A stretch of DNA of 64,000 bases, from NCBI GenBank assembly GCA_937975705.1, contig CALJTX010000019.1, positions 117,748 through 181,747 on the forward strand, in the 5' to 3' direction. The DNA comes from an uncultured Flavobacteriia bacterium (GTDB lineage Bacteria; Bacteroidota; Bacteroidia; Flavobacteriales_D; Crocinitomicaceae). The notes beneath the pieces are model-generated. The model was not told the DNA's origin, did not search any database, and worked only from the letters and a program-made list of their open reading frames with translations. Within the stretch, counting starts at the first letter, position 1. Every line of letters begins with the position of its first letter. The translations under genes and the position numbers were made by a program. Positions 15,858-30,778 of this stretch are shown piece by piece.

Positions 15858-15916
15858 CCTTTTGAGCATATAAATCTTTGGGTTTTTTCTAAAAAATATA
15901 TATCTTTTGCTTTGCT

Positions 15917-16402
15917 ATGCGATTTTATTTAGTTGACAGAATTGAGGAGATTATTCCAGGACAAAAGGCCACTGGAATCAAATGTTGGACTTTATCGGAA
16001 GATTATTTTGCGGAACATTTCCCAGGGTTTCCTATTGTTCCGGGCGTTTTACAAATAGAAACGATGGCCCAACTAATGGGCATCCTTATTGAACATTCAT
16101 ATGCTGCAGCCTATCCAGAGAAAGGGAGGTGTTATCCAATCCTAAGTATTGTTCAAAAGGCAAAATTTAGAGATGTCATCATTCCCGGCGACCAAAGTCA
16201 CATAGAAGTTGTTTTAACCTCTCTCGATACGATGCGTGCTGCCGGTAGTGCAAAATTGCTTGTGGAGGGGAAAGTCCGCGCGGAAGCGGATTTGAGTTTT
16301 ACTATTTTGGAAGCCCAACAAGCAAGTAATAACCCTTTTATTGGTCAACGCGACGAATATTATTTGTCTTTAAATGTTCAACAAACGCTTAAAAAGCGCT
16401 AA
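15917..16402 (+). CDS. FabZ/FabA-family 3-hydroxyacyl-ACP dehydratase (hot-dog fold)
   Basis: 'HFPGFPIVPGVLQIETMAQ' carries the catalytic His and Glu of FabZ-type dehydratases. 161 aa. Confidence 0.8.
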   Translation: MRFYLVDRIEEIIPGQKATGIKCWTLSEDYFAEHFPGFPIVPGVLQIETMAQLMGILIEHSYAAAYPEKGRCYPILSIVQKAKFRDVIIPGDQSHIEVVLTSLDTMRAAGSAKLLVEGKVRAEADLSFTILEAQQASNNPFIGQRDEYYLSLNVQQTLKKR

Positions 16403-17430
16403 TGCTCGCTACCATAACAGCCATCGGATTTTGGGAAAGTGCTATGTTTTCTGTCGACGGCACCTTGGAGCCAAGGTCTGAGTTGTTGCCTAATGAGGCT
16501 ATAAATCAGCGTCAGTTACCTCACTTTAACGCTGCGTTTCGCCAAATTCAACTCGATCCCACACACCCTAATTACCCCAAACAGAGCGATCTTAAAATTT
16601 TGCGCAACGATACAATTGCAGCACTTGTGCTGAGCCAGCAGATGCAGGCTTTACATCAGTGGGGCACTACATTTAAGGAACATGGCGCCCTTTTGGTTGC
16701 GAACAGCAATTTTATCGATGACGACGTACTCGATTTTGAGTCCATAACTACTGCAGTGAGTCAGTTACAAACGGCGCTTGATCCTGCAACTGAAAACAAA
16801 TTGTTTGGTTCTACTATTTCACCTTTATTGCCACTCAGAACGCTAACCAATGGCGCACAGAGTTTTATTGCGCAATATTTAGGATTTTATGGGAGTTCTA
16901 CCACTTACGGGAGTACAGGAATTGCGAGTGTTCAGGCCTTACGAGATGCCTGTAACTTAATCATTATTGATGCAAGCCGCTTGATTTTAGTTGGCGGTTG
17001 TCATTTCGCCAATTTGTTCTCATTTCTAAATAATTGCTTGTTGCTTCATGATACCGAAGGATATGCAGAGGCAAGCGCTGCTAGTTTTTTCATGTTAACA
17101 GCTGCCAATCCAAAGGTGAGCGGCAAGCACAATTTACACATCCTTCATTTTTATCAAAATCTAGAAGAGCTGCAAGGAGAACATGTAGATTGGTTGTTTT
17201 ACGGAGGTGCATTTACGCCGCTTGAGGATGCAAAATTGCTTGCGCGCTGTCAGCATTTGCAATATCAAGAAGCATTTAGCTGGTTTGCTCATACGGGTAA
17301 TCTTGGTGCGGCCGAACTCGGCATGCTGCTTGCGGCTGCGGGCAACTGGCTCAGAAAAGGTCAAACTGCAGTTGTGTTGATTCAAGATGCATTTGGCGTT
17401 CTAGAACTTTTCAAAGTGGAGCACGCATGA
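16402..17430 (+). CDS. KS-like, non-catalytic partner (chain-length-factor-like) protein
   Basis: 342 aa. The region equivalent to the KS active site reads 'YGSTGIASVQAL' (no Cys). C-terminal 'AHTGNLGAAELG' lacks the KS His. TAATG and ATGA coupling to both neighbours. Confidence 0.55.
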   Translation: MLATITAIGFWESAMFSVDGTLEPRSELLPNEAINQRQLPHFNAAFRQIQLDPTHPNYPKQSDLKILRNDTIAALVLSQQMQALHQWGTTFKEHGALLVANSNFIDDDVLDFESITTAVSQLQTALDPATENKLFGSTISPLLPLRTLTNGAQSFIAQYLGFYGSSTTYGSTGIASVQALRDACNLIIIDASRLILVGGCHFANLFSFLNNCLLLHDTEGYAEASAASFFMLTAANPKVSGKHNLHILHFYQNLEELQGEHVDWLFYGGAFTPLEDAKLLARCQHLQYQEAFSWFAHTGNLGAAELGMLLAAAGNWLRKGQTAVVLIQDAFGVLELFKVEHA

Positions 17431-18695
17431 GTTCAGCAAAAGTTTATGTCCTTCACACACATTCGGTGAGTCCGCTAGGGATGGGTAGCGCTGAGTTGTT
17501 GGCAGCCCTAAAAAATCAAAAGCAAGCTGCCGCTGACATCACACAATTTGACCCTGCTGGTTTGGCCCAAACCAAAGCCTGTGAAGTGGCGCCTGCATAT
17601 TTGGCGGGTCTTGACCTTCTTCATGAAGCTTGGCAAATGGTGGCAGCCTATGACCGTAAATTTGCACTTTGGGCCACCGCAGTGCAAAGCGAGCAAGCGC
17701 AACTTCAAGCGCTTTTTAGCAAAACTTCAACACAGCGAACAGCATTATTTTTGGGCTTGGGAGCCAACGCGATCCCCGTCCAACATATCGCCAAATCCGT
17801 TTCTGATTTTACCGCTTTTGGATTGAATCAAGCCATTGCCCAACTAAATGTTCATGTGGGTAAAAAAGCCAATTCGATTTTCAATCATGCCGATTTATAC
17901 GGTAACTATTTTCGCCAAGAAATTGCACCATTTGGCTTTTGTAGGAATTTAATGACGGCATGCTCGAGTAGTACGCAAGCCATTGCTTTTGGTGCTGCAC
18001 ATATTTTGTCCGGACAAGCTGATTTGGTTTTAGCAGGCGGCACCGACTCTATTCTCAATCAGTTTGCCTACATATCTTTTGGCAAATTAGGCGTATTGAG
18101 CCCTGAAGAATGTAAGCCTTTTGATACAGGACGCAACGGTACAATTGCTGGTGAATGTGCCGGATTTACATTGTTGGCATCTGAGCAATTCGTTCGGGAA
18201 AACGGTTTGCAACCCCAGATTGCACTTCTAGGTTATGGCAACAGCATGGACGCTTACAAAATCACTGCGCCAGATCCAAATGGGGCCGGCGTTGAACGCG
18301 CGCTGCGTTGCGCATTACAGATGGCTCAACTATCGCCAGAGGCATTGGATTACATCAATGCCCACGGAACCGGAACGCGATCCAATGACGAAGCAGAGTT
18401 GCGCGCCATTGAACGGGTTGTTGGTTCGGCTGCAGCTAATATTGCCGTGAGCTCGACCAAAGACCGACACGGTCATGCTATTGCAGCCGCGGGTATTCAA
18501 GAATTTCATGTGCTCACTACCTGTATGTCAAACGGACTCGTACCAGCAAACCTCAATTGTAACAATCCAATTCAAACGCCGCTTGAGCTGCCCCTACAAA
18601 CCAATCAAAATCGAAAAATCAAATATGCACTCACCAATAATTTTGCTTTTGGTGGTGTCAATTGTGCTTTAGCACTTGAAAACTTAGCCCTATGA
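17427..18695 (+). CDS. beta-ketoacyl-ACP synthase (KAS I/II-type, Cys-His-His)
   Basis: 'LMTACSSSTQAI' (Cys), 'INAHGTGT' (His), 'KDRHGHAIAAAG' (His), 'NNFAFGGVNCALAL' C-terminus. Confidence 0.85.
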   Translation: MSSAKVYVLHTHSVSPLGMGSAELLAALKNQKQAAADITQFDPAGLAQTKACEVAPAYLAGLDLLHEAWQMVAAYDRKFALWATAVQSEQAQLQALFSKTSTQRTALFLGLGANAIPVQHIAKSVSDFTAFGLNQAIAQLNVHVGKKANSIFNHADLYGNYFRQEIAPFGFCRNLMTACSSSTQAIAFGAAHILSGQADLVLAGGTDSILNQFAYISFGKLGVLSPEECKPFDTGRNGTIAGECAGFTLLASEQFVRENGLQPQIALLGYGNSMDAYKITAPDPNGAGVERALRCALQMAQLSPEALDYINAHGTGTRSNDEAELRAIERVVGSAAANIAVSSTKDRHGHAIAAAGIQEFHVLTTCMSNGLVPANLNCNNPIQTPLELPLQTNQNRKIKYALTNNFAFGGVNCALALENLAL

Positions 18696-19447
18696 ACCTC
18701 GAATTAAAAGATAAAATTGTGTGTATTACCGGTGCCTCAGGTGGGATTGGCTTGGCTCTGGTGAGTGCTTTTTTAGATGAGGGAGCTATTGTTTGCGCTA
18801 CGTATCATCGCAACCCAGATAAAATTGAGCAGCTGCGCGCCACGCTCGATCCAATGATTGGTTCTCATTTATTTGCGTACCCACTCGATCTTCAAAACCA
18901 AGCAAGTCAAAGCGCATGTGTTGCTGCAATGTGTAACGCACATCAGCGCATCGATGTCTTGGTCAATTGTGCAGGTTCGGCCTTAGAAAAACCTTTCTTG
19001 CTCTTGACACCCGAAGAAATTACGCAGCAAATCACCACTAATTTTAGCCAACAAGCACTTTTCACACAGCAAGTAGCTAAGGTCATGCTTGCACAGCGCA
19101 AAGGCAATATTGTCAATATTTCGAGTTTGTTAGCCAAACGTTTGGGTAGGGGAGTGGCTGTATATGCTGCAGCCAAAGCGGCTATTGATCGCTTTACACA
19201 AACACTTGCTCTAGAGGTAGGTAAAAAAGGCATTCGTGTCAACAGCATCAATCCAGGCCTCATTGCCACCAAGATGAGCAAAAATATCCAAGCGAATATG
19301 CCAGCGGAGCTCATGAATATGAGTCCGATTTCGAGGCCGGGCACACCAGAAGAAATTGCACAAGCAGCCTTGTTTTTAGCTTCAGACCGAGCAGCTAGTT
19401 ACATCACTGGCGTTTGTTTATCTGTAGATGGAGGCCTCAGTATTTAA
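18692..19447 (+). CDS. 3-oxoacyl-ACP reductase (FabG-type SDR)
   Basis: 'ITGASGGIGLA' cofactor motif, 'NISS', 'YAAAKAA' (YxxxK). 251 aa. Confidence 0.85.
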   Translation: MNLELKDKIVCITGASGGIGLALVSAFLDEGAIVCATYHRNPDKIEQLRATLDPMIGSHLFAYPLDLQNQASQSACVAAMCNAHQRIDVLVNCAGSALEKPFLLLTPEEITQQITTNFSQQALFTQQVAKVMLAQRKGNIVNISSLLAKRLGRGVAVYAAAKAAIDRFTQTLALEVGKKGIRVNSINPGLIATKMSKNIQANMPAELMNMSPISRPGTPEEIAQAALFLASDRAASYITGVCLSVDGGLSI

Positions 19448-19467
19448 TTCAAATTTATATTTCAAAA

Positions 19468-19863
19468 ATGACACAGAACGAAGAAATTATCGAACAAATC
19501 AAGCAAATCATCCACCAGTCTTGTGGTATTGACCCTGCCGTCATGCATGCGCATTCAACGATTTTTGATGAATTGAGCATCGATTCTATCGATATGGTAG
19601 ACATTTTATTTCAATTGGAAAGACACTATAATATTGAGCTCAAAATTTCTGAAATTGAGCAGCAATCTAAAGTTGAAATGGGAGAGGAACCTTTTGAAGT
19701 AAACCAAATCATTACGCCAAAAGGACTTGAAGTTTTGCGCCGACGCATGCCTGAGATAGATCCCAATCTACTCAAGGAGGGACTGTCTATGTTCGATGTG
19801 ATCAAATTGATCAATATCCAAAGTTTGGCAAATATGGTAGCGCATCAACTCGCTAAAAAATAA
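19468..19863 (+). CDS. acyl carrier protein with an internal insertion
   Basis: ATG at 19468 (the track start 19414 would overlap the end of fabG). 'DELSIDSIDMVDILFQLE' is the phosphopantetheine-Ser/helix II motif. 131 aa versus the usual ~80 aa. Confidence 0.7.
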   Translation: MTQNEEIIEQIKQIIHQSCGIDPAVMHAHSTIFDELSIDSIDMVDILFQLERHYNIELKISEIEQQSKVEMGEEPFEVNQIITPKGLEVLRRRMPEIDPNLLKEGLSMFDVIKLINIQSLANMVAHQLAKK

Positions 19864-19867
19864 AGGT

Positions 19868-21007
19868 ATGCCCGGCGTAATCTATCGCATTGCCGCACAG
19901 GAAGCACTTTATGGTTTTGGAGATCCTATTTTGGATGTCCCGATCCTAAATGAAAGTTTGGGGACCTATCAAGCGCGCATTTGTGCACAATGCGGTATGC
20001 GTATTGTGGATGTCTCATCAATTGAAAATTTACCTCAAACGGATATGCCCTTGTGGTATTTCCACGCCAAAATGATTTTCACGCTTGACTTTCTAAAGGC
20101 GGCAATTCAAGAAACAATTGCGAATCCGAGTGCATTTATTCAATTTGGTTTAAAAATGCAGCCCTCGGCTCAGCAGCATTCTTTGCCGATCGCGTTACAT
20201 GAAACCGAACTCACTTTTCCCTTGTTCTATAAAGGTAGTGTGGTTGCCCAACAAGCCCAACGAATTGAATTAGCTGGAAAAGAGTACGAGTGGCAAATTC
20301 AAATGCCCGCTCAGGTAATGCCTGGGGGCACCTACCGCTTGAATCAGAATGCGGTTTTTGCAGCCATGTTATTGTCTCCATTTCATTTGCATGGTGCCAA
20401 TATGGCCCTGAATTTGAACAGGGGTCTTCGGATCCAGGCCCTGCTTCCGGATTGGCTGCGCATGCGCATTTCCAAACCTTTTACCAAACTGACTTCTTTT
20501 GGATTAAAGCGCATGAATCGAAGCGGTAAGAATTGTCGAATACACCCGAGCGCTGTGGTGGAGGGTTGTGTCTTAGGCGACAACGTGACCGTTGGAGCCA
20601 ACGCTGTGCTCCGCATGAGTGTCATTGGGAGTGGAACCTTCATTGGCGATACCGCAGTTGTGAGTTTTTCGGTGCTGGGGCCAAATAACTTTGTAAGTAC
20701 GGGTAATCATTTGGTCAACAGCCTCACGTACCCCTCTGTTTTTACGATTCATGGCCCTTATCAGTACAGTATTTTTGGCCAGAACACAGCGGTTTTTGCC
20801 ACCATTAATTCAGATATCCGACTCGATTCAAAAACCATCAAAATACCCACAGAAATAGGGATCTGTGACTCCGGTCAAATTTTGCTTGGGGTGGCTTACG
20901 GACACCGTTCTAAAATTGGCGGTTCAAATATCATTGGCGCAGGGCGATTGGTCCCAAATGACTACGTTTTAAATCCGCCAGATTTCATCACACTTCAATT
21001 TGAATGA
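19868..21007 (+). CDS. left-handed beta-helix (hexapeptide-repeat) protein with GlmU/nucleotidyltransferase-like architecture
   Basis: C-terminal hexapeptide repeats 'IHPSAVVEGCVLGDNVTVGANAVLRMSVIGSGTFIGDTAVV'. The N-terminal ~220 aa is of unclear fold. Confidence 0.45.
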   Translation: MPGVIYRIAAQEALYGFGDPILDVPILNESLGTYQARICAQCGMRIVDVSSIENLPQTDMPLWYFHAKMIFTLDFLKAAIQETIANPSAFIQFGLKMQPSAQQHSLPIALHETELTFPLFYKGSVVAQQAQRIELAGKEYEWQIQMPAQVMPGGTYRLNQNAVFAAMLLSPFHLHGANMALNLNRGLRIQALLPDWLRMRISKPFTKLTSFGLKRMNRSGKNCRIHPSAVVEGCVLGDNVTVGANAVLRMSVIGSGTFIGDTAVVSFSVLGPNNFVSTGNHLVNSLTYPSVFTIHGPYQYSIFGQNTAVFATINSDIRLDSKTIKIPTEIGICDSGQILLGVAYGHRSKIGGSNIIGAGRLVPNDYVLNPPDFITLQFE

Positions 21008-24811: not shown

Positions 24812-26621
24812 TGCCAAGGCAAGTTCACTCGCTCAAAAAGTATGGGCGCTCAATGGTAACGAAGCGCTTGCTTATGGCGCTTTGCATGCCGGAGTCGCTT
24901 ATTTTGCGCATTATCCAGGTTCTCCGGTAAATGGAATCGAACCCGTTTTGAAGCAACTCAACACACAACATTCTGCCCAGATTACCTTTAACGATGCGCT
25001 CAATGAGCATATAGCGGCTTGCGCTGCAATAGGAGCGAGTATGACAGGCGCGCGCGCTATGTTGGTCATGAAACATGTTGGGCTCAATATTGCTGCTGAC
25101 CCATTGAATTATGTGGGTTATGCGGGAATCAAAGGTGGAATGCTCATTGTGGTGGGGACGGACCCCGGGGCAAATTCAAGTACGGGAGAAGAAGACGTAC
25201 ATTGGTATGCCAAGCAATTCAATTTGCCCCTATTTGAGCCTACAAGCCCACAAGAACTTTATGATTGCTGCCATAATGGATATGCACTTTCTGAAGCGCT
25301 CGGTTTGCCAATCCTTGTATATGTAACAGGACTCATTTGCCATCAGAGCACCCGCGTCAATACCAGACAGGTGGCAAATGAACCACGCCACTATTATTTT
25401 GAGAAAAATAGAGATCGGTATATCAATGTTGGCCAACGCGCCGTTCAAAATCACCGCTTACTGCTGGAAAAAATAGCTGGTTTTGCGCAGACCCATGCTT
25501 TTTTGAAAGTGGACGGACCGCCAAATGCTCCGTTGGCGGTAATCACAAGAGGTAATACAACATTACACTTTCCTGAAATACGCACCTACATCCCGCAATT
25601 AGCCAATTGCACCTGGATTCAGCTGACTGGTGTTTATCCTCTGCCAAAGAATGCCTTGTTGCCACTGCTTGAAGACAAAACAGAAATCATCGTGATGGAA
25701 GATCAAGATGGTTTTGTAGAGCACCTCATCAAAATGGAGTTGTACAATGAGCTCAGTGCAAAAATTCAAGGAAAAAATCTTTTTCCGGCATATGGTGAAT
25801 TGCGCGTTAACGAGCTACTAGAAATCATGTGTCGATACTTTGGCGTTGTGTATCCGTTTGCAGGTTTACCAAGCTTCCCTATTCCGGAGCGTTTGGGTAC
25901 TTTTTGCGAAGGTTGTCCGCATACGGGGAGTTACTTTGCTATTGAGCAAGCCCTACCCGAACAAGAACGTATCATTGGTGGCGATATCGGTTGTTCGTCT
26001 TTACCTCCATTTCGAGCAGATTGGTTATTGTGTATGAATGCTGGAATTGGACTTGCACAAGGAATGGCCCCGTTTGTACAAGCTCAAAAATTAGTCTCTA
26101 CAGGAGGTGATGGTAGTTTTTTTCACGGTGGTTTATTGGCCGTATTGAGCGCTATTCAAAATAAAGTCAATTTGGTACACCTCGTTTTTGACAACAAAAG
26201 TGTTGCCATGACCGGGCATCAGTTATCTGCCTCCACGCAGGTAGCTTATGCAGATTTACTGCGCGCACTAGGCGTTGCATCCTTTTCTGAAGCCAGCGCA
26301 TTTCATCCAAAAGAGCTTGAAGCACTTGTAAAAGAAAAAGAACAGCTCGAGGGGGTTCATGTCATCTGGGTAAGCGGGGCCTGTGCACAAATACCTGATG
26401 CACGTGCTACTTTTAGAAGGGCGCATTACGCACCTCAGATCGATGCCAGTAAATGTGCTTCATGTACCTTGTGTTATGAATCATTGGCTTGCCCCGCAAT
26501 TGATCGGGATGAGAAGGGGCAGTTTCAGATCGATTTGGCGCGCTGTATGCGCTGTGGTGTGTGCCATGAAATTTGTCCGAACGACGCCATTGACTTAGGC
26601 GCAAAAACAGGTCAAGCATGA
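24804..26621 (+). CDS. iorA: indolepyruvate:ferredoxin oxidoreductase alpha subunit-like (TPP + 2x[4Fe-4S])
   Basis: 'LNGNEALAYGALHAGVAYFAHYPGSP' N-terminus, 'GDIGCSSL' TPP region, and C-terminal ferredoxin motifs 'CASCTLCYESLACP' and 'CMRCGVCHEICP'. Confidence 0.8.
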   Translation: MIDAKASSLAQKVWALNGNEALAYGALHAGVAYFAHYPGSPVNGIEPVLKQLNTQHSAQITFNDALNEHIAACAAIGASMTGARAMLVMKHVGLNIAADPLNYVGYAGIKGGMLIVVGTDPGANSSTGEEDVHWYAKQFNLPLFEPTSPQELYDCCHNGYALSEALGLPILVYVTGLICHQSTRVNTRQVANEPRHYYFEKNRDRYINVGQRAVQNHRLLLEKIAGFAQTHAFLKVDGPPNAPLAVITRGNTTLHFPEIRTYIPQLANCTWIQLTGVYPLPKNALLPLLEDKTEIIVMEDQDGFVEHLIKMELYNELSAKIQGKNLFPAYGELRVNELLEIMCRYFGVVYPFAGLPSFPIPERLGTFCEGCPHTGSYFAIEQALPEQERIIGGDIGCSSLPPFRADWLLCMNAGIGLAQGMAPFVQAQKLVSTGGDGSFFHGGLLAVLSAIQNKVNLVHLVFDNKSVAMTGHQLSASTQVAYADLLRALGVASFSEASAFHPKELEALVKEKEQLEGVHVIWVSGACAQIPDARATFRRAHYAPQIDASKCASCTLCYESLACPAIDRDEKGQFQIDLARCMRCGVCHEICPNDAIDLGAKTGQA

Positions 26622-27142
26622 AACAAGAACTGCGCATATTAATAGCCGGGGTTGGCGGGCAGGGCATTCATGGCTTTGTGCGCGTGCTGCAACAAGAGAT
26701 GTACACTCAAGGTTATGAACTGATTTGCGCGCGCTATAAAGGTGGGGCCCAAAGCCTTGGCTCAGTTCATGCAGAAATAAAGATCTTTTTAAGCCCAGCG
26801 CAGGCTAGCGAACAGCAGAGTAGCCAACTGATTCCGGGCACCATCGATATCTTGCTTGGGCTCGAACGCTGGGAAACCCTACGTTTCTTGCCTTTTTGTC
26901 ACAACCAAACCTTCATTGTCTGCGATACCTACACAGAATTTCCGCCAGGAACCAAACGTCAAGATGACCTGCCTTCAATTGATACGTACTTTTCGAGATT
27001 GACCAATCCAATGATAAGCAAAGACTTTGTAGCATTAGCCCACGCTCGGGGCTGGTCAAAATCAGCAGTTCCATTCTTGCTTTTTAATGAGGCTATCGAG
27101 GCGCTTGGCCTAACGACAACTATTCAACAACTAAAACCTTAA
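26618..27142 (+). CDS. iorB: indolepyruvate/2-oxoacid:ferredoxin oxidoreductase beta(gamma-type) subunit
   Basis: 'ILIAGVGGQGIHGF' P-loop-like motif of the POR gamma/IorB family. ATGA overlap with iorA. Confidence 0.7.
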   Translation: MKQELRILIAGVGGQGIHGFVRVLQQEMYTQGYELICARYKGGAQSLGSVHAEIKIFLSPAQASEQQSSQLIPGTIDILLGLERWETLRFLPFCHNQTFIVCDTYTEFPPGTKRQDDLPSIDTYFSRLTNPMISKDFVALAHARGWSKSAVPFLLFNEAIEALGLTTTIQQLKP

Positions 27143-27146
27143 CCAC

Positions 27147-28514
27147 ATGAATTGGAAAGAAAACTCTAGAGTAGCCATGCATTGGCACACCAATGAACAA
27201 GGCAATAAAATTGTTTGTGACCTTTGTCCAAGACATTGCCAAACGCAACCTGGCCAGATGGGATTTTGCAAAGTCAGAGGGAATGTTGATGGAACCTTTC
27301 ATACGTTCAATTTCGGTAAATCGGTGACGGCAACCCAAGAGTGTATTGAAACGGAAGCTGTCAACCATTACATGCCGGGTGCCCGTATCTTGAGTTTGGG
27401 TAATATCGGTTGCATGATGGCTTGCTCTTATTGTCAGAACTGGCAAACTTCTCAAATTAAGCACCTCAATGATGCAAATGTATTTGAGTACACGCCAGAA
27501 CAAGTAATTGAACTTGCGCTTTCCAACGACATCAAAGTCATTTCCTGGACCTACAACGATCCTGTAGTTTGGCACGAATTTGTGCTAGAGACCTCCAGGT
27601 TAGCTAAAGCGGCAGGCCTCACCACCTTATATAAATCTGCGCTATATATTGAGCTTGAACCTTTGCGAGAATTAATTGAAGTGATAGACATTTTCTCGAT
27701 TTCACTCAAGTGCATGGACGATGCGATTTACCGCAAGGAAAACAAGGGAAAATTGCAACCGGTCCTCGATGCTATTGAGCTCATCGCTGCTTCTGAGCGC
27801 CATCTGGAGATTTCACAATTGGTTGTTACGGGCCTCAATGACGATGGCACAGATGCCATTAAAACTGCACGTTGGATGCGCGAAAAGCTCAAACCCGAAG
27901 TGCCTTTACATTTGGTGGCGTATCACCCTAGTTTCAAGTATAAAAAGCCGCGTACTGAACTGTCCACCTTACTCAAGCTGAGAGAACTTGTGATCAAGGA
28001 AGGCTTGGAGTATGTCTATTTAGGAAATGTCTATGCCGACGACATGAGCAATACCTATTGTAAGTCTTGTTCGAATTTGCTTGTAGAACGCTTTGGACTC
28101 TCTGTTCAAGTCCCAGGCCTCGATGCCGATGGAAATTGCAAAAATTGCCATACACCGTCAGTAATCAGAGATGCTTTGGGTGGGCAGCCAACAGAAAAGC
28201 CTGTTTTGGTACCATTTGTTGCCGAGCAAACGCATACTTTTGAGTGGAACGACGAAATCAGATCCGTTCATATTTTCCTGGACAGTCCGCAAAAAGATAC
28301 GGTACGTATCCAATTAAAGCGCATGCCTGCCAATACCATCCATTATCTCGAACTCAATGAAGGGCTCGAGCGCATTATTTTGTCAAAGAGTAGTGCGCAA
28401 GAGCAAGCGCTCATTATTTCAGCCGCATGTCAAACGCCACTGCACATCTTGCCGGTGCTCGACCGCGCACACTTCCCTGTTATTGATGAAACCAAAGCAT
28501 CGAGCTATGCATAA
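27147..28514 (+). CDS. radical SAM enzyme, AmmeMemoRadiSam-system type, with ~110-aa C-terminal extension
   Basis: N-terminal 'CDLCPRHCQTQPGQMGFCKVR'. Radical SAM CxxxCxxC 'CMMACSYC'. Zn-ribbon-like 'CKSCSN...CKNCH'. About 110 more residues with no motif I recognise. Confidence 0.75.
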   Translation: MNWKENSRVAMHWHTNEQGNKIVCDLCPRHCQTQPGQMGFCKVRGNVDGTFHTFNFGKSVTATQECIETEAVNHYMPGARILSLGNIGCMMACSYCQNWQTSQIKHLNDANVFEYTPEQVIELALSNDIKVISWTYNDPVVWHEFVLETSRLAKAAGLTTLYKSALYIELEPLRELIEVIDIFSISLKCMDDAIYRKENKGKLQPVLDAIELIAASERHLEISQLVVTGLNDDGTDAIKTARWMREKLKPEVPLHLVAYHPSFKYKKPRTELSTLLKLRELVIKEGLEYVYLGNVYADDMSNTYCKSCSNLLVERFGLSVQVPGLDADGNCKNCHTPSVIRDALGGQPTEKPVLVPFVAEQTHTFEWNDEIRSVHIFLDSPQKDTVRIQLKRMPANTIHYLELNEGLERIILSKSSAQEQALIISAACQTPLHILPVLDRAHFPVIDETKASSYA

Positions 28515-29634
28515 ACTGACCCAAATTTTAAAACAGCGCGTAGATACAACCAACGCTGCGCCTGTTGTTACGCCTATCTATCAAAATAGTGCATTTGAAG
28601 CGCACTCTCCTTTTTTTTATACGCGTAAGAACAATCCAAATGTCGAAGAACTAGAGCAAGTTTTCTGTGCTTTAGAGGAGTCCGCATTTGCGGTGTGCTG
28701 CTCGACAGGAATGGCTGCCATTTCAAATACGCTCCTGTTATTGAAGCCAGGTGATCATTTGGTCATCAATCAATTGATTTATGGCTGTTCTTATGTGCTT
28801 TTTGAGCGTTTTTGTCAACAGTATCAAATTGAGCTCACTGTGCTCGACCTCACTTCTGATGAAGGAATAAACGCCATGCCGCAAGATGTCAGTATGGTCT
28901 TATTTGAGACCCCAACCAATCCTTTTGTGCGCAGCATTGCTATTGCCGCTGTGGTCAAGCAGGCTAAAAAATGCAATCCGAATTGTGTGGTAGTTGTAGA
29001 CAACACTTGGGCCACTCCTTTATTCCAACAGCCTTTAATGCATGGCGCTGATCTCTCGTTGTATTCTGCAACAAAATACTTTTCGGGACACAGCGACGTG
29101 ATGGGTGGCGTACTCACAACAAATGATCCTGTTCTTGCGCAGCATTTAAGAGAAGCGCGGTTTTATCATGGCGCTATTCTGGATCCAAATAGCGCTTGGT
29201 TGTTGCGCAGAAGCATGCAGACATTCACTATTCGGATGCGCGCACATGGACAGGCCACCACACAAATTAGAGACTGGTTACAGCAGCAAAGTGGGGTGGA
29301 AGCGGTTTTTTATCCTCAAATCGATGGCAGTCAATTGAAAGGTTATGCCACATTATTGTTTTTCACGTTAGCGGAGTCTTTGAGTGAGCGCTACGATGAA
29401 TTTGTGTCCGCATTGCAACTTTTTGATACCGGCACCGGAATGGCATGTGTAACCTCTATGGTGGCCCGGCCATATTCTGGTAGCCATGCCTCCATGAACG
29501 AGCAGCAAAAACAGCAAATGGGGCTTACCCGTCAGCTCGTCAGGCTCAGCATTGGTTTGGAGGAGGTAGATGACCTTATTGCGGATTTAAGCCAAGCTTT
29601 TGAACAAATCGGCGCCAATGAATTGAACGCCTAA
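28507..29634 (+). CDS. Cys/Met-metabolism PLP-dependent enzyme (cystathionine gamma-synthase/lyase family)
   Basis: ATG at 28507 overlaps the rSAM stop (ATGCATAA). PLP-lysine motif 'YSATKYFSGHSDVMGG'. 'TPTNP' and 'DNTWATP' motifs. Confidence 0.8.
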   Translation: MHKLTQILKQRVDTTNAAPVVTPIYQNSAFEAHSPFFYTRKNNPNVEELEQVFCALEESAFAVCCSTGMAAISNTLLLLKPGDHLVINQLIYGCSYVLFERFCQQYQIELTVLDLTSDEGINAMPQDVSMVLFETPTNPFVRSIAIAAVVKQAKKCNPNCVVVVDNTWATPLFQQPLMHGADLSLYSATKYFSGHSDVMGGVLTTNDPVLAQHLREARFYHGAILDPNSAWLLRRSMQTFTIRMRAHGQATTQIRDWLQQQSGVEAVFYPQIDGSQLKGYATLLFFTLAESLSERYDEFVSALQLFDTGTGMACVTSMVARPYSGSHASMNEQQKQQMGLTRQLVRLSIGLEEVDDLIADLSQAFEQIGANELNA

Positions 29635-29644
29635 AGGGCAAACT

Positions 29645-30775
29645 ATGCAGGAGCAGGAAGCATTCACATTATACCGATTAAAAGCACTTGCCATTTGCGC
29701 ACTTCTTGTATTGCACCTTCTACTGAGCTTTACTTGGATACCACAACTCTACGGTATTTGGCCAATCAGTGTGGAGGCACCAAGTATAAGCCTGACTGGT
29801 TTTGCGTCATTTTTGAATCTTTTTGGACTGCTCTTGTTTTTTATTTTGTCGGGCTACACACTCCGAAAAAAAGCGTTCAATCAGGAGCGCTACTTGCTGC
29901 AAAAAGCAAACAAAAACATGTGGCGCTTCTTCAAGTATTATACTTTGCTTTCGCTCATTTTTTATTTGTTGTTGTCTTTTTCAGAGGGGCGCTTTTTGGC
30001 TTTTGATGAATGCACTTTTTTAGTTTCATTTTACCATTTGTGGTTTATTGTTGCCTTGGCCGGGTTCCAATTGTTATTATTTCTTGTGCAGCGATTGAAT
30101 TCAGCCTTAATTAAGAACCTGCGGATACCCGTTGCGCTTCCGCTCTGCATTCATGCGCTTGGATTATATGGACAAGGAGGTGTTTTTTTGAAAACGCCGA
30201 CCCAGTTAGCTGCAGCAACCTTACTCTCTATTGTGGTGTATTTCTTTTGGTTTCTGTACGGCTTCTCACGTCCAAAAGGCCCACTCCATTTGGGCAATAG
30301 ATTTAGTTTGCAGCGCTTATTGAGTTGTATTCTGGTGCTTGGAATCTATTTCTTAGCAAAAACGGCGCTCATTTTCTCTTGGAATTTTACAACTTTTTGG
30401 CAATTGCTTTCATCGTGCATCGATCCTTTGACATTTATCGCTGCGCTAAACATCAGTTTGTGGCTTTTTGAGGTAGCAAATAAAAAGCAATATGCTATTG
30501 ATTCAACGCGGCTCCAATATTTTTTACTGCGTTTTCAACTGCCAATTTATGTGTTTCAGATTCCCCTGATCTTCGTTCTTATTTCGATCCAAGAGATATT
30601 TGGATGCAGGCTGTTTCTAACTGAAAAATACAATTCTCAAGTGCCCAATTGGCAAGAAGCGCCCAGCACTTGGATATTGTTTCACATCCTTTTGATCATT
30701 TTTGCGCTGCTTATGTGGCTGCTCTGGCACTTTAGCAAACAAAAAACCCCTCATTCAAAAGAACAAGGGGTTTAG
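29645..30775 (+). CDS. integral-membrane acyltransferase (Acyl_transf_3-like)
   Basis: About 10 TM helices. N-terminal 'YRLKALAICALLVLH' fits the R..A....V..H start of the acyltransferase-3 family. Confidence 0.55.
   Translation: MQEQEAFTLYRLKALAICALLVLHLLLSFTWIPQLYGIWPISVEAPSISLTGFASFLNLFGLLLFFILSGYTLRKKAFNQERYLLQKANKNMWRFFKYYTLLSLIFYLLLSFSEGRFLAFDECTFLVSFYHLWFIVALAGFQLLLFLVQRLNSALIKNLRIPVALPLCIHALGLYGQGGVFLKTPTQLAAATLLSIVVYFFWFLYGFSRPKGPLHLGNRFSLQRLLSCILVLGIYFLAKTALIFSWNFTTFWQLLSSCIDPLTFIAALNISLWLFEVANKKQYAIDSTRLQYFLLRFQLPIYVFQIPLIFVLISIQEIFGCRLFLTEKYNSQVPNWQEAPSTWILFHILLIIFALLMWLLWHFSKQKTPHSKEQGV
30744..30773 (-). terminator. hairpin likely terminating tRNA-Cys, embedded in the last codons of the acyltransferase gene
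   Basis: 8-bp stem AAACCCCT / AGGGGTTT with a 14-nt loop. A T6 run follows on the minus strand (plus-strand A-run 30738-30746). Confidence 0.4.
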
Positions 30776-30778
30776 ATG

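What the first reader, a model, noticed from the sequence alone, without database searches (positions are those of the whole stretch)
15917..30775. Orphan 13-gene, translationally coupled type-II FAS/PKS-like lipid operon with IorAB, radical SAM, PLP enzyme and a desaturase-MMPL fusion
Seen in sequence: thirteen same-strand ORFs are packed so tightly that they must form one transcript.
- TAATG junction at 16402.
- ATGA junctions at 17427, 18692, 21004 and 26618.
- 8-nt overlaps at 24804 and 28507, and a 17-nt overlap at 22085.
- The remaining gaps are 4-20 nt.

The products give a self-contained acyl-chain elongation set:
- a FabZ-type dehydratase;
- a Cys-less KS-like partner plus a Cys-His-His KS;
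- a FabG-type ketoreductase;
- a dedicated ACP;
- a saccharopine-dehydrogenase-fold candidate enoyl reductase.

They are joined to genes not normally found together with such a set:
- indolepyruvate:ferredoxin oxidoreductase IorA/IorB;
- an AmmeMemoRadiSam-type radical SAM enzyme with no AMMECR1 or Memo partner;
- a cystathionine-gamma-synthase-family PLP enzyme;
- a hexapeptide-repeat protein;
- a desaturase fused to an MMPL/RND exporter;
- an Acyl_transf_3 membrane acyltransferase.

I saw no malonyl-CoA:ACP transacylase, thioesterase, PPTase or regulator.

Inference: the operon makes and exports a specialised envelope lipid or polyketide-like molecule. One possibility is priming with an aryl- or indolyl-acetyl unit from IorAB, elongation and reduction on the dedicated ACP, then desaturation or hydroxylation and flipping by the fusion protein. 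Radical-SAM and PLP chemistry, and O-acylation, could modify it further.

The cluster lacks the hallmarks of the aryl-polyene and flexirubin clusters I know (ammonia-lyase, CoA ligase, LolA-like protein, thioesterase, DarAB). I therefore cannot assign it to a described pathway.
Basis: partly seen in the sequence, partly recalled or inferred. Interest (0 to 1): 0.85.

Follow-up and report, generated by a model that had tools for sequence, protein, structure and literature searches.

The report
Conserved orphan lipid-building operon
A real 13-gene operon in a freshwater Bacteroidota bacterium joins a private fatty-acid-type assembly line to a radical-SAM / PLP / 2-oxoacid enzyme module that recurs in many bacterial phyla, and I found no described product or pathway for any version of it.

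Summary
Thirteen same-strand ORFs (15917-30775) have exactly the reported overlaps and gaps, and nearly all the domain calls are right.

The cluster is not a chance juxtaposition. The same gene set recurs in 34 loci from Bacteroidota, Bdellovibrionota and unclassified MAGs, sometimes rearranged or split.

It has two layers:
- **A dedicated reducing type II FAS/PKS set.** This is a Cys-His-His KS, a Cys→Thr KS-like partner, KR, a FabZ/ApeI-like DH, a long ACP and a Sacchrp_dh-family reductase.
- **An older, wider module.** This is a PFL-activase/AmmeMemo-type radical SAM enzyme, a methionine-γ-lyase-like PLP enzyme, a GlmU-like NTase+LbH protein and a membrane di-iron desaturase, usually with IorAB.

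The wider module also occurs without any FAS genes:
- with an Lgt-like transferase in Proteobacteria, Planctomycetota, Aquificota and Brocadiia;
- with a PDH-type E1αβ replacing IorAB in Acidobacteria-type loci;
- as a bare rSAM–PLP pair in Pseudomonas.

No Pfam, NCBIfam, PDB or literature entry describes the set.

Aryl/indolyl priming is not. My best reading is an undescribed envelope-lipid pathway whose rSAM–PLP cassette feeds a 2-oxoacid to IorAB. The product is unknown.

The parts
15588..15916 (.). 329-nt divergent intergenic region between exbB (minus strand) and gene 1. It is the presumed promoter region of the operon.
   Evidence: No Rfam riboswitch was found here. Promoter-like matches are not above chance.
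15917..16402 (+). Gene 1: FabZ-type / ApeI-like 3-hydroxyacyl-ACP dehydratase (161 aa).
   Evidence: PF07977 at E 3e-18. TIGR01750 fabZ at 96 bits, below its cut-off. Best PDB matches are FabZ. Orthologues carry PF22818 ApeI-like.
16402..17430 (+). Gene 2: divergent Cys-less KS-like partner, CLF-like (342 aa).
   Evidence: No Pfam or NCBIfam hit. hhalign against the KS family gives 95% probability and E 3e-8. Invariant Thr172 sits at the catalytic Cys position. Only 87 relatives were found among 1.84 billion representatives.
17427..18695 (+). Gene 3: elongating ketosynthase, FabF-like (422 aa).
   Evidence: PF00109 and PF02801. C179, H313 and H350 are invariant. PDB matches: FabF 7e-50, 9s5h_B 3e-48, 6kxd 4e-40 over the full length; 6kxe, the same sequence group as 6kxd, is identified as the ishigamide KS in the preprint read.
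18692..19447 (+). Gene 4: FabG-type ketoreductase (251 aa).
   Evidence: adh_short_C2 at E 2e-56. TIGR01830 at 189 bits.
19468..19863 (+). Gene 5: dedicated ACP (131 aa) with a C-terminal extension of about 60 aa.
   Evidence: PP-binding at E 1e-9 over residues 9-67. The 129-137 aa length is conserved in all FAS-containing loci.
19868..21007 (+). Gene 6: GlmU/ST0452-like two-domain protein (379 aa). It has an NTase-like N-domain without a GxGTR loop and a left-handed beta-helix C-domain. Candidate acyl-transfer or off-loading enzyme.
   Evidence: Hexapep/LbH Pfam hits. The AF2 model (pLDDT 77) matches ST0452, GMPPB, eIF2B and AGPase. Invariant HGPYQ and INxDxRLD motifs are shared with the FAS-less clusters.
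21004..22101 (+). Gene 7: Sacchrp_dh_NADP-family reductase (365 aa). Candidate trans-acting enoyl reductase.
   Evidence: PF03435 at E 3e-10. It co-occurs with the FAS genes in 33/34 loci and in 0/27 FAS-less loci. No PDB relative was found beyond the Rossmann part.
22085..24811 (+). Gene 8: fusion of a membrane di-iron desaturase/hydroxylase (about residues 1-265) with an RND/HAE3-like exporter (about residues 265-908).
   Evidence: PF00487 at E 2e-19 plus His boxes. HpnN at 43 bits and HAE3 at 24 bits. Distant MMPL homologues. The two parts are separate genes in L007 and L008, and the L008 transporter hits Sterol-sensing. The AF2 model was unusable.
24804..26621 (+). Gene 9: IorA-type 2-oxoacid:ferredoxin oxidoreductase alpha subunit with a fused 2x[4Fe-4S] domain (605 aa).
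   Evidence: POR_N, TPP_enzyme_C and Fer4. TIGR03336 at 411 bits against a cut-off of 651.
26618..27142 (+). Gene 10: IorB-type beta subunit (174 aa).
   Evidence: PF01558 at 24 bits, just below its cut-off. NCBIfam IorB models at 40-53 bits, below their cut-offs.
27147..28514 (+). Gene 11: radical SAM enzyme of the PFL-activase/AmmeMemoRadiSam type (455 aa). It has two extra 4-Cys motifs and a C-terminal extension of about 110 aa.
   Evidence: TIGR04337 at 289 bits, above the 220 cut-off. C89/C93/C96 are 100% conserved. C24/27/31/41 and C305/308/331/334 are conserved in 78-95% of 37 orthologues. PFL-AE is the only PDB relative.
28507..29634 (+). Gene 12: PLP enzyme of the CGS/CGL/MGL family, methionine-gamma-lyase-like (375 aa).
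   Evidence: PF01053 at E 1e-96. Best PDB hits are MGLs at 1e-63. The YGC, SATKY..GHSD, FYTRxxNPN and VRLxFG motifs are near-invariant in 38 orthologues. At least 615 clade members at E<=1e-90.
29645..30775 (+). Gene 13: polytopic membrane protein (376 aa), a probable Acyl_transf_3 O-acyltransferase. It is a variable tailoring gene.
   Evidence: The window copy fails Pfam, but orthologues hit PF01757. It is replaced by a sulfotransferase in L008 and sits at other positions in L024, L025 and L028.
30778..30849 (-). tRNA-Cys(GCA), which marks the 3' boundary of the operon.

Best explanation
The 13 genes are one biosynthetic operon for a specialised membrane or envelope lipid made by a pathway that has not been described. 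It is built from three layers.

**1. A private, reducing type II FAS/PKS-like line.** An active Cys-His-His KS pairs with an inactive Cys→Thr KS-like partner, as in KS/CLF heterodimers. A FabG-type KR, a FabZ/ApeI-like DH and a Sacchrp_dh-family reductase (candidate trans-acting enoyl reductase) process the chain on a dedicated long ACP. Malonyl loading and phosphopantetheinylation are borrowed from primary metabolism.

**2. An older module that also works without these FAS genes in other phyla.** It consists of:
- a PFL-activase-type radical SAM enzyme with two extra Cys4 motifs;
- a methionine-γ-lyase-like PLP enzyme that is always next to it;
- a TPP-dependent 2-oxoacid enzyme (IorAB here);
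- a GlmU-like NTase+LbH protein;
- a membrane di-iron desaturase/hydroxylase.

Most likely (inferred), the rSAM and PLP enzymes act in sequence on a Met/SAM/homocysteine-type amino acid that is substituted at Cγ, and γ-elimination releases a small 2-oxoacid of the 2-oxobutyrate type. IorAB then converts that to an acyl-CoA. This primes or decorates the ACP-bound chain, and through the ferredoxin domain of IorA it returns low-potential electrons to the rSAM cluster. The LbH protein, like LpxA/LpxD/GlmU, transfers an acyl group and so stands in for the missing thioesterase.

**3. Tailoring and export.** The lipid is desaturated or hydroxylated in the membrane and handed directly to the fused RND pump. 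An Acyl_transf_3 enzyme optionally O-acylates it.

**What is shown:** gene anatomy, catalytic motifs, co-conservation and modularity. **What is inferred:** every chemical step and the product.
For: **Anatomy and motifs.**

**Co-conservation.**
- The same set occurs in 34 non-redundant FAS-containing loci from Crocinitomicaceae, Cryomorphaceae, Schleiferiaceae, Saprospiraceae and Bdellovibrionota.
- It survives rearrangement. In L009 IorAB comes first and the reductase last. In L036 and L041 genes are inverted.
- It survives a change of flank: the L006 downstream flank differs.

**Modularity.**
- rSAM-PLP-desaturase-LbH recurs without KS or ACP in 27 loci. An Lgt-like transferase is present in all 25 of these loci that were clustered.
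- Acidobacteria-type loci keep rSAM, PLP, LbH and (in two of the three) the desaturase, but carry a PDH-type E1αβ instead of IorAB.
- Pseudomonas keeps only rSAM+PLP, at 44% and 58% identity over the full length.

**Assignment of parts.**
- The Sacchrp_dh reductase and the RND pump track the FAS genes (33/34 and 24/34 loci, against 0/27 for both). The desaturase and LbH occur in both kinds of cluster.
- The PLP enzyme's best solved relatives are methionine γ-lyases, and it has an invariant Tyr-Gly-Cys motif.
- The KS family resembles the KS of a highly reducing type II PKS (ishigamide). An inactive partner with Cys→Thr is also described in a ladderane cluster.
- The LbH model matches the bifunctional NTase/acetyltransferase ST0452.

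**Established knowledge (from memory).**
- LbH enzymes LpxA and LpxD use acyl-ACP.
- Rv2953, a PF03435 protein, is a trans-acting enoyl reductase in PDIM synthesis.
- Pyruvate:flavodoxin oxidoreductase supplies electrons for PFL activase in E. coli.
Against: - No step is demonstrated and no product is known. No cultured host was identified for the FAS-containing type.
- IorAB is not found within 10 kb in several FAS-containing loci (L035, L040, L041) or in the Planctomycetota loci. It therefore cannot be strictly required in cis.
- If the PLP product were plain 2-oxobutyrate, the rSAM enzyme would have no obvious role in making it.
- The NTase-like domain lacks the canonical NTP loop, and LbH enzymes are not known to release chains from type II PKS ACPs.
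- The enoyl-reductase role of the Sacchrp_dh protein rests on family membership and co-occurrence only.
- The RND assignment is below family thresholds, and the AF2 model failed.
- In the Pseudomonas locus, the third gene ("aminotransferase") looks most like MocR effector domains. That locus therefore adds little to the 2-oxoacid argument.
Confidence: 0.5

Rival explanations
1. Radical thiolation, or another heteroatom transfer. The rSAM enzyme couples a substrate carbon radical to the sulfur of homocysteine, methionine or SAM, giving an S-alkyl-homocysteine. The MGL-like enzyme then cleaves the Cγ-S bond, which leaves a thiol on the lipid or head group and releases 2-oxobutyrate. IorAB or E1 burns the 2-oxobutyrate and recycles electrons to the rSAM enzyme. 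In the FAS-less clusters, the thiol is then S-diacylglycerylated by the Lgt-like enzyme. In this operon, it sits on the ACP-made chain.
For: - It gives every member of the conserved block a role and explains the obligate rSAM-PLP pairing.
- MGL-type enzymes are C-S γ-lyases, and this one has the YGC motif and MGLs as best PDB hits.
- The native chemistry of Lgt is diacylglyceryl transfer to a thiol. The Lgt-like protein is present in 25/25 clustered FAS-less loci and keeps the GR... and YGxxRFxxEFxRE motifs.
- The rSAM enzyme has two extra Cys4 motifs.
- One relative carries a sulfotransferase.
- The logic of attaching a donor and then cutting with a PLP C-S lyase is established for ergothioneine, gliotoxin and lincomycin (from memory).
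Against: - It is purely deductive. No rSAM enzyme is known to form S-alkyl-homocysteine in this way.
- PFL-activase-type rSAM enzymes are not known sulfur-insertion catalysts.
- The substrate is unidentified.
- This operon has no Lgt-like gene.
Confidence: 0.15
2. One reading: a variant of aryl-polyene/flexirubin-type pigment or polyketide synthesis. IorAB makes aryl- or indolyl-acetyl-CoA as the starter, KS/CLF builds the chain, and the other enzymes tailor it.
For: - A KS + CLF-like pair, an ApeI-like DH (PF22818 in orthologues), a FabG-like KR, a dedicated ACP and an RND-type exporter are all shared with APE clusters.
- The IorA architecture and its best family hit are of the Ior type.
Against: - None of the 13 genes is an aryl-activating ligase, ammonia-lyase, thioesterase, LolA-like protein, second KS/DH pair or methyltransferase.
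- A reductase tracks the FAS genes, which argues for a saturated chain.
- IorAB is below the Ior equivalog cut-offs (411 against 651 bits).
- IorAB travels with rSAM-PLP, a PDH-type E1 sits in its place elsewhere, and it is missing from some complete relatives.
Confidence: 0.1
3. The rSAM enzyme acts on the ACP-bound acyl chain itself, for example by cyclisation, cross-linking or C-H functionalisation, as proposed for ladderane and other rSAM-modified fatty acids. PLP + IorAB are only a methionine-recycling and electron-supply unit: the methionine co-product of SAM cleavage goes to 2-oxobutyrate, which yields reduced ferredoxin.
For: - Ladderane clusters likewise combine an unusual FabZ, a KS with an inactive partner, an ACP and rSAM enzymes.
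- IorA carries its own ferredoxin domain.
- The hosts are aerobes that may lack low-potential donors.
- B12-rSAM enzymes, which would act on the chain, recur as accessory genes.
Against: - The rSAM-PLP pair also exists where there is no ACP or FAS gene. The substrate therefore cannot be specific to this ACP.
- The PLP enzyme is the most conserved protein of the block apart from the rSAM enzyme (52-58% identity in the most distant clusters). That is more than a mere scavenger would be expected to show.
- IorAB is dispensable in cis in several loci.
Confidence: 0.12
4. There is no single pathway. A FAS-like lipid operon (genes 1-8) happens to lie next to an amino-acid catabolic cassette (methionine γ-lyase + 2-oxoacid oxidoreductase + rSAM), and the two are read through together.
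For: - The two halves occur independently elsewhere.
- MGL + OFOR is a known catabolic pairing in anaerobes (from memory).
Against: - Both halves stay together across Bacteroidota and Bdellovibrionota despite rearrangements that interleave them. L009 has IorAB-DH-...-LbH-rSAM-PLP-reductase, and L036 has LbH-IorAB-rSAM-PLP.
- LbH and the desaturase bridge both kinds of cluster.
- In the window, the genes overlap by 4-17 nt across the supposed boundary.
Confidence: 0.05

Closest known systems
Highly reducing type II PKS / KS-CLF systems (ishigamide Iga11-Iga12; aryl-polyene ApeO-ApeC)
   Same: - An active Cys-His-His KS paired with an inactive KS-like partner.
- Discrete KR, FabZ/ApeI-like DH and a dedicated ACP.
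- The KS aligns over its full length to the ishigamide KS group (6kxd, 4e-40).
- APE clusters also carry an RND/MMPL-type exporter (from memory).
   Different: - No starter-activating ligase, thioesterase, LolA-like protein or second KS/DH pair.
- The partner is so divergent that Pfam does not see it, and only 87 relatives exist among 1.84 billion representatives.
- A Sacchrp_dh reductase suggests full reduction of the chain.
- The set is joined to an rSAM/PLP/OFOR/LbH module that is absent from those systems.
Putative ladderane FAS-like cluster of anammox bacteria (amxACP, amxFabZ, amxFabF2/amxFabFmut, rSAM enzymes)
   Same: - An orphan FAS II-like cluster with a special ACP and a FabZ variant.
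- A KS plus an inactive partner, which is Cys→Thr in Scalindua.
- Radical SAM enzymes.
- The product route is unknown (bioRxiv 10.64898/2026.05.19.726425).
   Different: - Different rSAM class.
- No PLP enzyme, OFOR, LbH, desaturase or RND there (from memory).
- The hosts here are aerobic Bacteroidota and Bdellovibrionota.
- The Brocadiia locus found here (L074) is of the FAS-less type.
AmmeMemoRadiSam system (TIGR04337 rSAM with AMMECR1 and Memo)
   Same: The rSAM enzyme scores above the family cut-off (289 bits against 220). It shares the N-terminal Cys motif and the PFL-activase-like core.
   Different: - No AMMECR1 or Memo gene.
- An extra conserved C-terminal domain of about 110 aa.
- The constant partner is an MGL-like PLP enzyme instead. 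Automatic annotation by this family name is probably misleading here.
Indolepyruvate:ferredoxin oxidoreductase IorAB / methionine γ-lyase + 2-oxoacid oxidoreductase catabolism
   Same: - The two-subunit Ior architecture with a fused ferredoxin domain.
- An MGL-like PLP enzyme that would yield 2-oxobutyrate, a substrate for OFORs.
   Different: - Both proteins score far below the equivalog cut-offs.
- They are embedded in a lipid cluster.
- A PDH-type E1αβ sits in place of IorAB in related clusters.
Rhizobitoxine pathway (RtxA PLP γ-replacement domain + RtxC fatty-acid-desaturase-like enzyme); recalled, not tested
   Same: A PLP enzyme of the homoserine/methionine γ-family is paired with a membrane FA_desaturase-family enzyme. 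That enzyme acts on the amino-acid-derived moiety and makes an enol ether.
   Different: - No serinol-forming domain.
- rSAM, OFOR, LbH and FAS genes are present here.
- No sequence comparison was possible.
Mycobacterial PDIM/PGL logic (trans-acting enoyl reductase Rv2953, MmpL7 export) and hopanoid HpnN
   Same: - A PF03435-family reductase acts in trans on a carrier-bound chain.
- An RND/MMPL pump is dedicated to one lipid.
- The best named hit of the transporter half is HpnN.
   Different: - Type I PKS there, against type II here.
- Similarity is only at the level of the family.
- The HpnN score is 43 bits against a cut-off of 752.

Membership tests
Aryl polyene / flexirubin cluster | KS plus a CLF-like inactive partner, with a discrete KR, DH and ACP | tested here: met
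   PF22818 ApeI-like is present in orthologues.
Aryl polyene / flexirubin cluster | Aryl starter supply and activation (ammonia-lyase or chorismate-derived 4-HBA, plus an ApeH-type ligase) | tested here: not met
   None of the 13 ORFs has an AMP-binding, ammonia-lyase or comparable domain.
Aryl polyene / flexirubin cluster | Thioesterase, LolA-like protein, second KS and second DH | tested here: not met
   Absent from the Pfam and NCBIfam results for all 13 ORFs.
KS/CLF-type (highly reducing type II PKS-like) elongation system | Active KS with a Cys-His-His triad | tested here: met
   C179, H313 and H350 are invariant in 14 orthologues.
KS/CLF-type (highly reducing type II PKS-like) elongation system | Thiolase-fold partner that lacks the catalytic Cys | tested here: met
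   hhalign gives 95% probability and E 3e-8. Thr172 sits at the Cys position. The fold itself was not modelled.
KS/CLF-type (highly reducing type II PKS-like) elongation system | Physical heterodimer that controls chain length | not testable with these tools
   This needs co-purification or a multimer prediction.
Housekeeping type II FAS | FabD, FabH and FabI/K/L/V present together with FabF/G/Z and AcpP | tested here: not met
   No FabD, FabH or FabI-type gene is present. All FAS-like hits are below the equivalog cut-offs.
AmmeMemoRadiSam system | rSAM enzyme matching TIGR04337 above its cut-off | tested here: met
   288.8 bits against a cut-off of 220. Relatives score 290-307 bits.
AmmeMemoRadiSam system | AMMECR1 and Memo partner genes | tested here: not met
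   Neither is present in the cluster, in the window ORFs scanned, or among the Pfam-annotated genes of the related loci examined.
Indolepyruvate:ferredoxin oxidoreductase (IorAB) | Alpha subunit with POR_N + TPP + 2x[4Fe-4S], plus a small beta subunit | tested here: met
Indolepyruvate:ferredoxin oxidoreductase (IorAB) | Equivalog-level similarity | tested here: not met
   The alpha subunit scores 410.8 bits against 650.9. The best beta score is 52.7 bits against 284.
Indolepyruvate:ferredoxin oxidoreductase (IorAB) | Arylpyruvate specificity | not testable with these tools
   Indirect evidence points the other way: a PDH-type E1αβ occupies the same position in related clusters.
Methionine γ-lyase | Cys_Met_Meta_PP fold, PLP lysine, and the Tyr-Gly-Cys active-site motif (motif definition from memory) | tested here: met
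Methionine γ-lyase | Equivalog-level similarity or demonstrated Met γ-elimination | tested here: not met
   TIGR01328 scores 257.9 bits against 549.7. Activity cannot be tested here.
RND / MMPL (HpnN-like) lipid exporter | Family HMM above threshold | tested here: not met
   HpnN scores 43 bits against 752. HAE3 scores 24 bits against 352. The window protein has no Pfam MMPL hit.
RND / MMPL (HpnN-like) lipid exporter | Two repeats, each of TM1 + large loop + TM2-6 | tested here: inconclusive
   Hydropathy fits this pattern. Distant homologues carry PF03176 or PF12349. The AF2 model had pLDDT 44 and was unusable.
GlmU/ST0452-type bifunctional NTase-acyltransferase | NTase-fold N-domain followed by an LbH C-domain | tested here: met
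   Foldseek matches 5z0a and 2ggo at E 4e-8.
GlmU/ST0452-type bifunctional NTase-acyltransferase | Canonical G-x-G-T-R NTP-binding loop | tested here: not met
   The N-terminal consensus is MxIYRI...FGDxIxDVPIL, which has no GxGTR.

The most novel reading that the evidence does not exclude
The rSAM enzyme and the MGL-like PLP enzyme form a previously unrecognised two-enzyme cassette. It has at least 615 protein clusters across many phyla and is routinely mis-named "AmmeMemoRadiSam". The cassette performs a new radical transformation of a methionine/homocysteine-type substrate. That could be radical C-S bond formation followed by γ-lyase cleavage, which amounts to thiolation. Alternatively it could make an unusual 2-oxoacid. 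A dedicated TPP 2-oxoacid enzyme is proposed to power and drain the reaction. In this operon the cassette is wired to a private KS/CLF line, which would give a structurally new class of envelope lipid in uncultured aquatic bacteria. In other phyla it is wired to an Lgt paralogue instead.
Probability: 0.2. Interest if true: 0.9.

Novelty: new variant of a known kind. Interest (0 to 1): 0.62.

Why it matters
**Scale of the gap.** The operon and its relatives define a multi-phylum family of lipid-associated gene clusters with no known product. The FAS-containing form is seen only in MAGs and metagenomes, so no chemotaxonomic lipid data can exist for it.

**Testable questions it raises.**
- What does a PFL-activase-type rSAM enzyme do when it is permanently paired with a γ-lyase-type PLP enzyme?
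- Why is a TPP 2-oxoacid enzyme attached to the pair?
- What lipid do Crocinitomicaceae, Saprospiraceae and Bdellovibrionota export with a dedicated RND pump?

**Practical points.**
- The rSAM enzymes in these clusters pass the AmmeMemoRadiSam cut-off, so they are likely annotated under that name although they have no AMMECR1 or Memo partner nearby.
- The Pseudomonas yamanorum version offers a culturable entry point to the enzymology.

**Limits.** Orphan clusters are common, and nothing here shows an unprecedented reaction yet.

Tried and rejected
1. **AlphaFold2 of the 908-aa fusion protein.** With a 7-sequence alignment the pLDDT was 44, so I did not use the model or send it to fold search.
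2. **Structure prediction of the Sacchrp_dh protein.** Profile and sequence searches of PDB gave only Rossmann-level hits.
3. **Desaturase domain against plasmid records by tblastn.** No match, so I obtained no named relative such as RtxC or CrtW.
4. **Nine literature searches.** They returned nothing that describes the set. The topics were:
   - Ior + rSAM + ACP + KS;
   - AmmeMemoRadiSam;
   - AMMECR1 + Memo + rSAM;
   - Lgt + rSAM + desaturase + cystathionine;
   - DUF6198;
   - rSAM + MGL + Pseudomonas + LysE;
   - rSAM + CGS + 2-oxobutyrate;
   - highly reducing type II + Bacteroidetes;
   - Lgt-like or Lgt paralogue.
5. **Riboswitch or other RNA upstream of or within the operon.** None was found; the only hit was the downstream tRNA-Cys.
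6. **Recent horizontal transfer judged by base composition.** GC is 0.44-0.46 in the cluster against 0.40-0.47 in the flanks, so nothing stands out.
7. **Cispentacin-type AmcE/AmcF chemistry.** Considered because of NCBIfam hits, but rejected. The scores are far below the cut-offs (30 against 140 bits, and 179 against 325 bits) and no AmcH-type loader is present.
8. **TonB/ExbBD genes upstream and T9SS genes downstream as part of the cluster.** Rejected. They are syntenic only in close relatives, and the downstream flank differs in L006.
9. **Pseudomonas "aminotransferase" as support for a 2-oxoacid intermediate.** Weakened, because its best hits are MocR effector domains.

Full report
**Observation**

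The window carries 13 same-strand ORFs from 15917 to 30775. I checked all 12 junctions base by base, and they are exactly as reported:
- TAATG at 16402;
- ATGA at 17427, 18692, 21004 and 26618;
- 8-nt overlaps at 24804 and 28507;
- a 17-nt overlap at 22085;
- gaps of 20, 4, 4 and 10 nt.

The gene order is:
1. DH
2. KS partner
3. KS
4. KR
5. ACP
6. LbH protein
7. Sacchrp_dh reductase
8. desaturase-RND fusion
9. IorA
10. IorB
11. rSAM
12. PLP enzyme
13. membrane acyltransferase

Pfam and NCBIfam confirm nearly every domain call. Three calls are weaker.
- **KS partner.** No family model sees it. It is KS-like only by profile-profile comparison (95%, E 3e-8), with an invariant Thr where the KS has its catalytic Cys.
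- **RND half of ORF8.** It reaches only sub-threshold HpnN/HAE3 scores, although the hydropathy pattern fits an RND protein.
- **ORF13.** It fails Acyl_transf_3, although its orthologues pass.

No FabD, thioesterase, PPTase, regulator, AMMECR1 or Memo is present in the cluster or in the other window ORFs scanned.

The operon is bounded on both sides.
- Upstream is a 329-nt divergent intergenic region next to an exbB-exbD-exbD-tonB block.
- Downstream is a tRNA-Cys on the other strand.

The base composition of the operon is unremarkable. The rest of the window is ordinary Bacteroidota chromosome, with T9SS cargo, TonB-dependent receptors, proS, recJ and pyk.

**Is it a functional unit?**

The desaturase-RND fusion has only seven close relatives among 5.8 billion protein clusters. 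All come from one lineage, with the same 13-gene order and the same upstream flank, so they say little on their own. One of them (L006) does have a different downstream flank, which fixes the 3' boundary.

The LbH protein reaches much further.
- At 53% identity (L007) the order is the same, but the desaturase and the transporter are separate genes.
- At 41% identity (L008) a sulfotransferase replaces the last gene.
- At 38% identity (L009) the cluster is rearranged. IorAB comes first and the reductase after the PLP enzyme. There is no desaturase or pump. It has an extra B12-rSAM enzyme, nucleosidase, aldehyde dehydrogenase, SPASM-rSAM enzyme and ThiF.

A scan of 185,579 species genomes with the LbH alignment returned 66 loci, all from MAGs.

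Mapping the 13 proteins onto all loci gave 34 non-redundant FAS-containing loci.
- They come from Crocinitomicaceae, Cryomorphaceae, Schleiferiaceae, Saprospiraceae, other Flavobacteriales, Bdellovibrionales, Bacteriovoracaceae and Halobacteriovoraceae.
- The set persists even though some genes are inverted or relocated.

Chance juxtaposition is therefore excluded. The window organism is most likely a member of Crocinitomicaceae, since its LbH protein is 82-83% identical to those of Crocinitomicaceae MAGs.

**The cluster is a composite**

The same scan found 27 loci with no KS, partner, DH or ACP (weak KR-like matches in two). They still carry rSAM, PLP, desaturase and an LbH protein that shares the unusual HGPYQ and INxDxRLD motifs. 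IorA-IorB often lies in front.

These loci come from Methylococcales, Thiotrichaceae, other Gammaproteobacteria, Planctomycetota, a Brocadiia MAG, Aquificaceae, Elusimicrobiota and Bdellovibrionota.

All 25 of these loci that were clustered carry a divergent paralogue of prolipoprotein diacylglyceryl transferase (Lgt) next to the LbH gene, usually between the desaturase and LbH genes. It keeps the GR and YGxxRFxxEFxRE motifs and has a QHCC motif of its own.

The PLP enzyme is the most conserved component apart from the rSAM enzyme. At least 615 protein clusters match at E<=1e-90, far above the level of canonical MGL/CGS. Sampling their contexts showed two further arrangements.
- **Acidobacteria-type loci**. 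These carry a methyltransferase, an HgcAB-like corrinoid-ferredoxin fusion, a desaturase (in two of the three loci), a PDH-type E1α+E1β in the place of IorAB, LbH, PLP, ABC1, CoA-transferases and patatin, with the rSAM gene nearby.
- **A Pseudomonas yamanorum island**. This carries only a YczE-like membrane protein, rSAM (44% identity over the full length), PLP (58%), an Aminotran_1_2 protein and LysE.

Presence counts sort the parts.

| Component | FAS-containing loci (of 34) | FAS-less loci (of 27) |
|---|---|---|
| Sacchrp_dh reductase | 33 | 0 |
| RND pump | 24 | 0 |
| Desaturase | 23 | 25 |
| LbH protein | 34 | 26 |

Many absences in the first column are due to truncated contigs. The reductase and the pump go with the FAS genes. 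The desaturase and LbH go with both kinds of cluster. The Lgt paralogue was seen only in the FAS-less loci, so it and the FAS genes look like alternatives.

**Anatomy of the key proteins**

- **KS.** It has an invariant Cys-His-His triad. Its best solved relatives are FabF, 9s5h_B and 6kxd. A 2026 preprint identifies 6kxe, the same sequence group as 6kxd, as the ishigamide KS of a highly reducing type II PKS. The same preprint shows that anammox FabF homologues form a KS/CLF-like heterodimer whose inactive subunit has Cys→Val or Cys→Thr.
- **KS partner.** It belongs to a very small family, with 87 representatives at E<=1e-3 among 1.84 billion.
- **LbH protein.** The model has pLDDT 77 and a confident N-domain. 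It matches ST0452, GMPPA/B, eIF2B and ADP-glucose pyrophosphorylase, so it has the GlmU-like NTase+LbH architecture. The N-terminus lacks the GxGTR loop.
- **rSAM enzyme.** It passes the AmmeMemoRadiSam model. It has the CX3CX2C motif, two further conserved Cys4 motifs, and a conserved C-terminal extension of about 110 aa. PFL activase is its only solved relative.
- **PLP enzyme.** It keeps the PLP lysine and the carboxylate- and phosphate-binding motifs. It has an invariant Tyr-Gly-Cys, which I recall as the MGL signature. Its best solved relatives are methionine γ-lyases.
- **IorA and IorB.** They have the Ior architecture but score well below the equivalog cut-offs.

**Most likely mechanism**

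What is shown is a dedicated reducing KS/CLF-type line plus a portable rSAM-PLP-(TPP enzyme)-LbH-desaturase module.

What follows is inferred.
- The PLP enzyme belongs to a family that acts on γ-substituted 2-aminobutyrates and releases 2-oxoacids.
- Its near-constant companion in the lipid-associated clusters is a TPP enzyme that decarboxylates 2-oxoacids. An OFOR and a PDH-type E1 occupy the same place in different clusters.
- I therefore propose that rSAM+PLP deliver a small aliphatic 2-oxoacid, which IorAB converts to an acyl-CoA. IorAB would also reduce its own ferredoxin domain, a plausible electron source for the rSAM enzyme.
- The acyl unit primes or decorates the chain built on the private ACP.
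- The reductase completes each elongation cycle.
- The LbH protein transfers an acyl group to the final acceptor and so replaces a thioesterase.
- The desaturase acts in the membrane and passes the lipid to the fused pump.
- Acyl_transf_3, a sulfotransferase and B12-dependent enzymes are optional tailoring steps.

I give about 0.7 to the general statement that this is a single, undescribed envelope-lipid pathway. I give about 0.25 to the specific chemistry.

**Rivals**

- **Radical thiolation.** The rSAM enzyme makes an S-alkyl-homocysteine and the γ-lyase leaves a thiol. This gives every conserved gene a role and fits the thiol chemistry of the Lgt paralogue, but it has no precedent.
It lacks all hallmark genes, and the behaviour of IorAB across relatives contradicts it.
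- **rSAM acting on acyl-ACP, with PLP+IorAB as a recycling unit.** This is possible, but it does not explain why rSAM-PLP pairs exist where there is no ACP.
- **Two unrelated operons.** The interleaved rearrangements contradict this.

**Comparison with what is known, and novelty**

The elongation half is a new, very divergent member of the KS/CLF-type reducing type II systems. The other half resembles nothing I could find in NCBIfam (June 2026), Pfam, PDB or the literature library.

The rSAM enzyme meets the sequence criterion of the AmmeMemoRadiSam family but fails its defining gene context. IorAB and the MGL-like enzyme meet the fold criteria but not the equivalog criteria.

I rate the operon a new variant of a known kind, a type II FAS/PKS-like lipid cluster. 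There is a real chance that the rSAM-PLP cassette hides new chemistry.

**Caveats**

- All FAS-containing loci are from MAGs or metagenomes, and some MAG labels are probably binning errors.
- The absence of a gene within 10 kb does not prove its absence from the genome.
- The literature library excludes most subscription journals.

Noticed in passing
window 30778-30849 (minus strand): A tRNA-Cys(GCA) gene lies 3 nt after the stop codon of gene 13. A strong hairpin at 30744-30773 overlaps the end of gene 13, on the strand that would terminate the tRNA or the downstream convergent gene.
   Followed up: partly
L042-L075, e.g. L044:2249-10537: FAS-less clusters with the order (Metal_hydrol)-IorA-IorB-rSAM-PLP-desaturase-Lgt paralogue-LbH. 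They occur in Methylococcales, Thiotrichaceae, Planctomycetota, Brocadiia, Aquificaceae and Elusimicrobiota. The Lgt paralogue has a conserved GRxGCxxQHCC motif and is far below the Lgt equivalog cut-off (44 against 334 bits).
   Followed up: partly
L078:1586-11140, L079:2789-11170, L080:2176-11173: Acidobacteria-type clusters combine the PLP, LbH, rSAM and (in L078 and L080) desaturase genes with several others: a PDH-type E1 alpha/beta, an HgcAB-like corrinoid-ferredoxin fusion (354 bits, above the 285 cut-off), a UbiE/CMAS-like methyltransferase, an Acg-family FMN oxidoreductase, an ABC1 kinase, two CoA-transferases and a patatin.
   Followed up: partly
L076/L077:7087-13135: A Pseudomonas yamanorum genomic island, next to MmeI restriction-modification or McrBC genes and phage AlpA. 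It carries AsnC - YczE-like membrane protein - rSAM - PLP - Aminotran_1_2 (MocR-effector-like) - LysE. This is a culturable host for the rSAM-PLP cassette.
   Followed up: partly
window 19468-19863 and orthologues: The dedicated ACP is 129-137 aa in every FAS-containing locus. That is about 60 residues longer than a normal ACP, and the extension is C-terminal with unknown function.
   Followed up: no
window 27147-28514: All cluster-linked rSAM enzymes pass the NCBIfam AmmeMemoRadiSam cut-off (289-307 bits against 220) although no AMMECR1 or Memo gene is nearby. They are therefore likely to be annotated under that family name, which is probably misleading for this subfamily.
   Followed up: partly
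window 11370-15587 (minus strand): A PBP_like_2 - small ORF - TonB - ExbD - ExbD - ExbB block lies directly upstream and divergent from the operon. It is syntenic in all close relatives (L001, L003, L005, L006) but not in distant ones.
   Followed up: partly
window 30898-33776 (minus strand): Two T9SS-sorted secreted proteins lie downstream. One is a copper type II monooxygenase-like protein with an N-terminal cytochrome-c/haem-binding motif. The other is a BD-FAE/carboxylesterase. A ChaN-like haem-binding protein and a two-component system follow.
   Followed up: no
window 51572-56242 and 44779-46974 (minus strand): Two very large ORFs (1555 aa and 730 aa) have no Pfam match at E<=1e-5.
   Followed up: no
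L016, L021, L029: Contigs labelled Sphingomonadales, Rhizobium and Chitinophaga carry clusters 40-70% identical to the Crocinitomicaceae type, including Bacteroidota-type flanks in L016. These are probably binning or labelling errors in the MAGs rather than transfer.
   Followed up: no
L009:11139-12512, L035:14440-15864, L037:18112-19470: A B12-binding radical SAM enzyme recurs as an accessory gene in three distant FAS-containing clusters. Together with the HgcAB-like corrinoid protein of the Acidobacteria-type loci, this suggests optional cobalamin-dependent methylation of the product.
   Followed up: no
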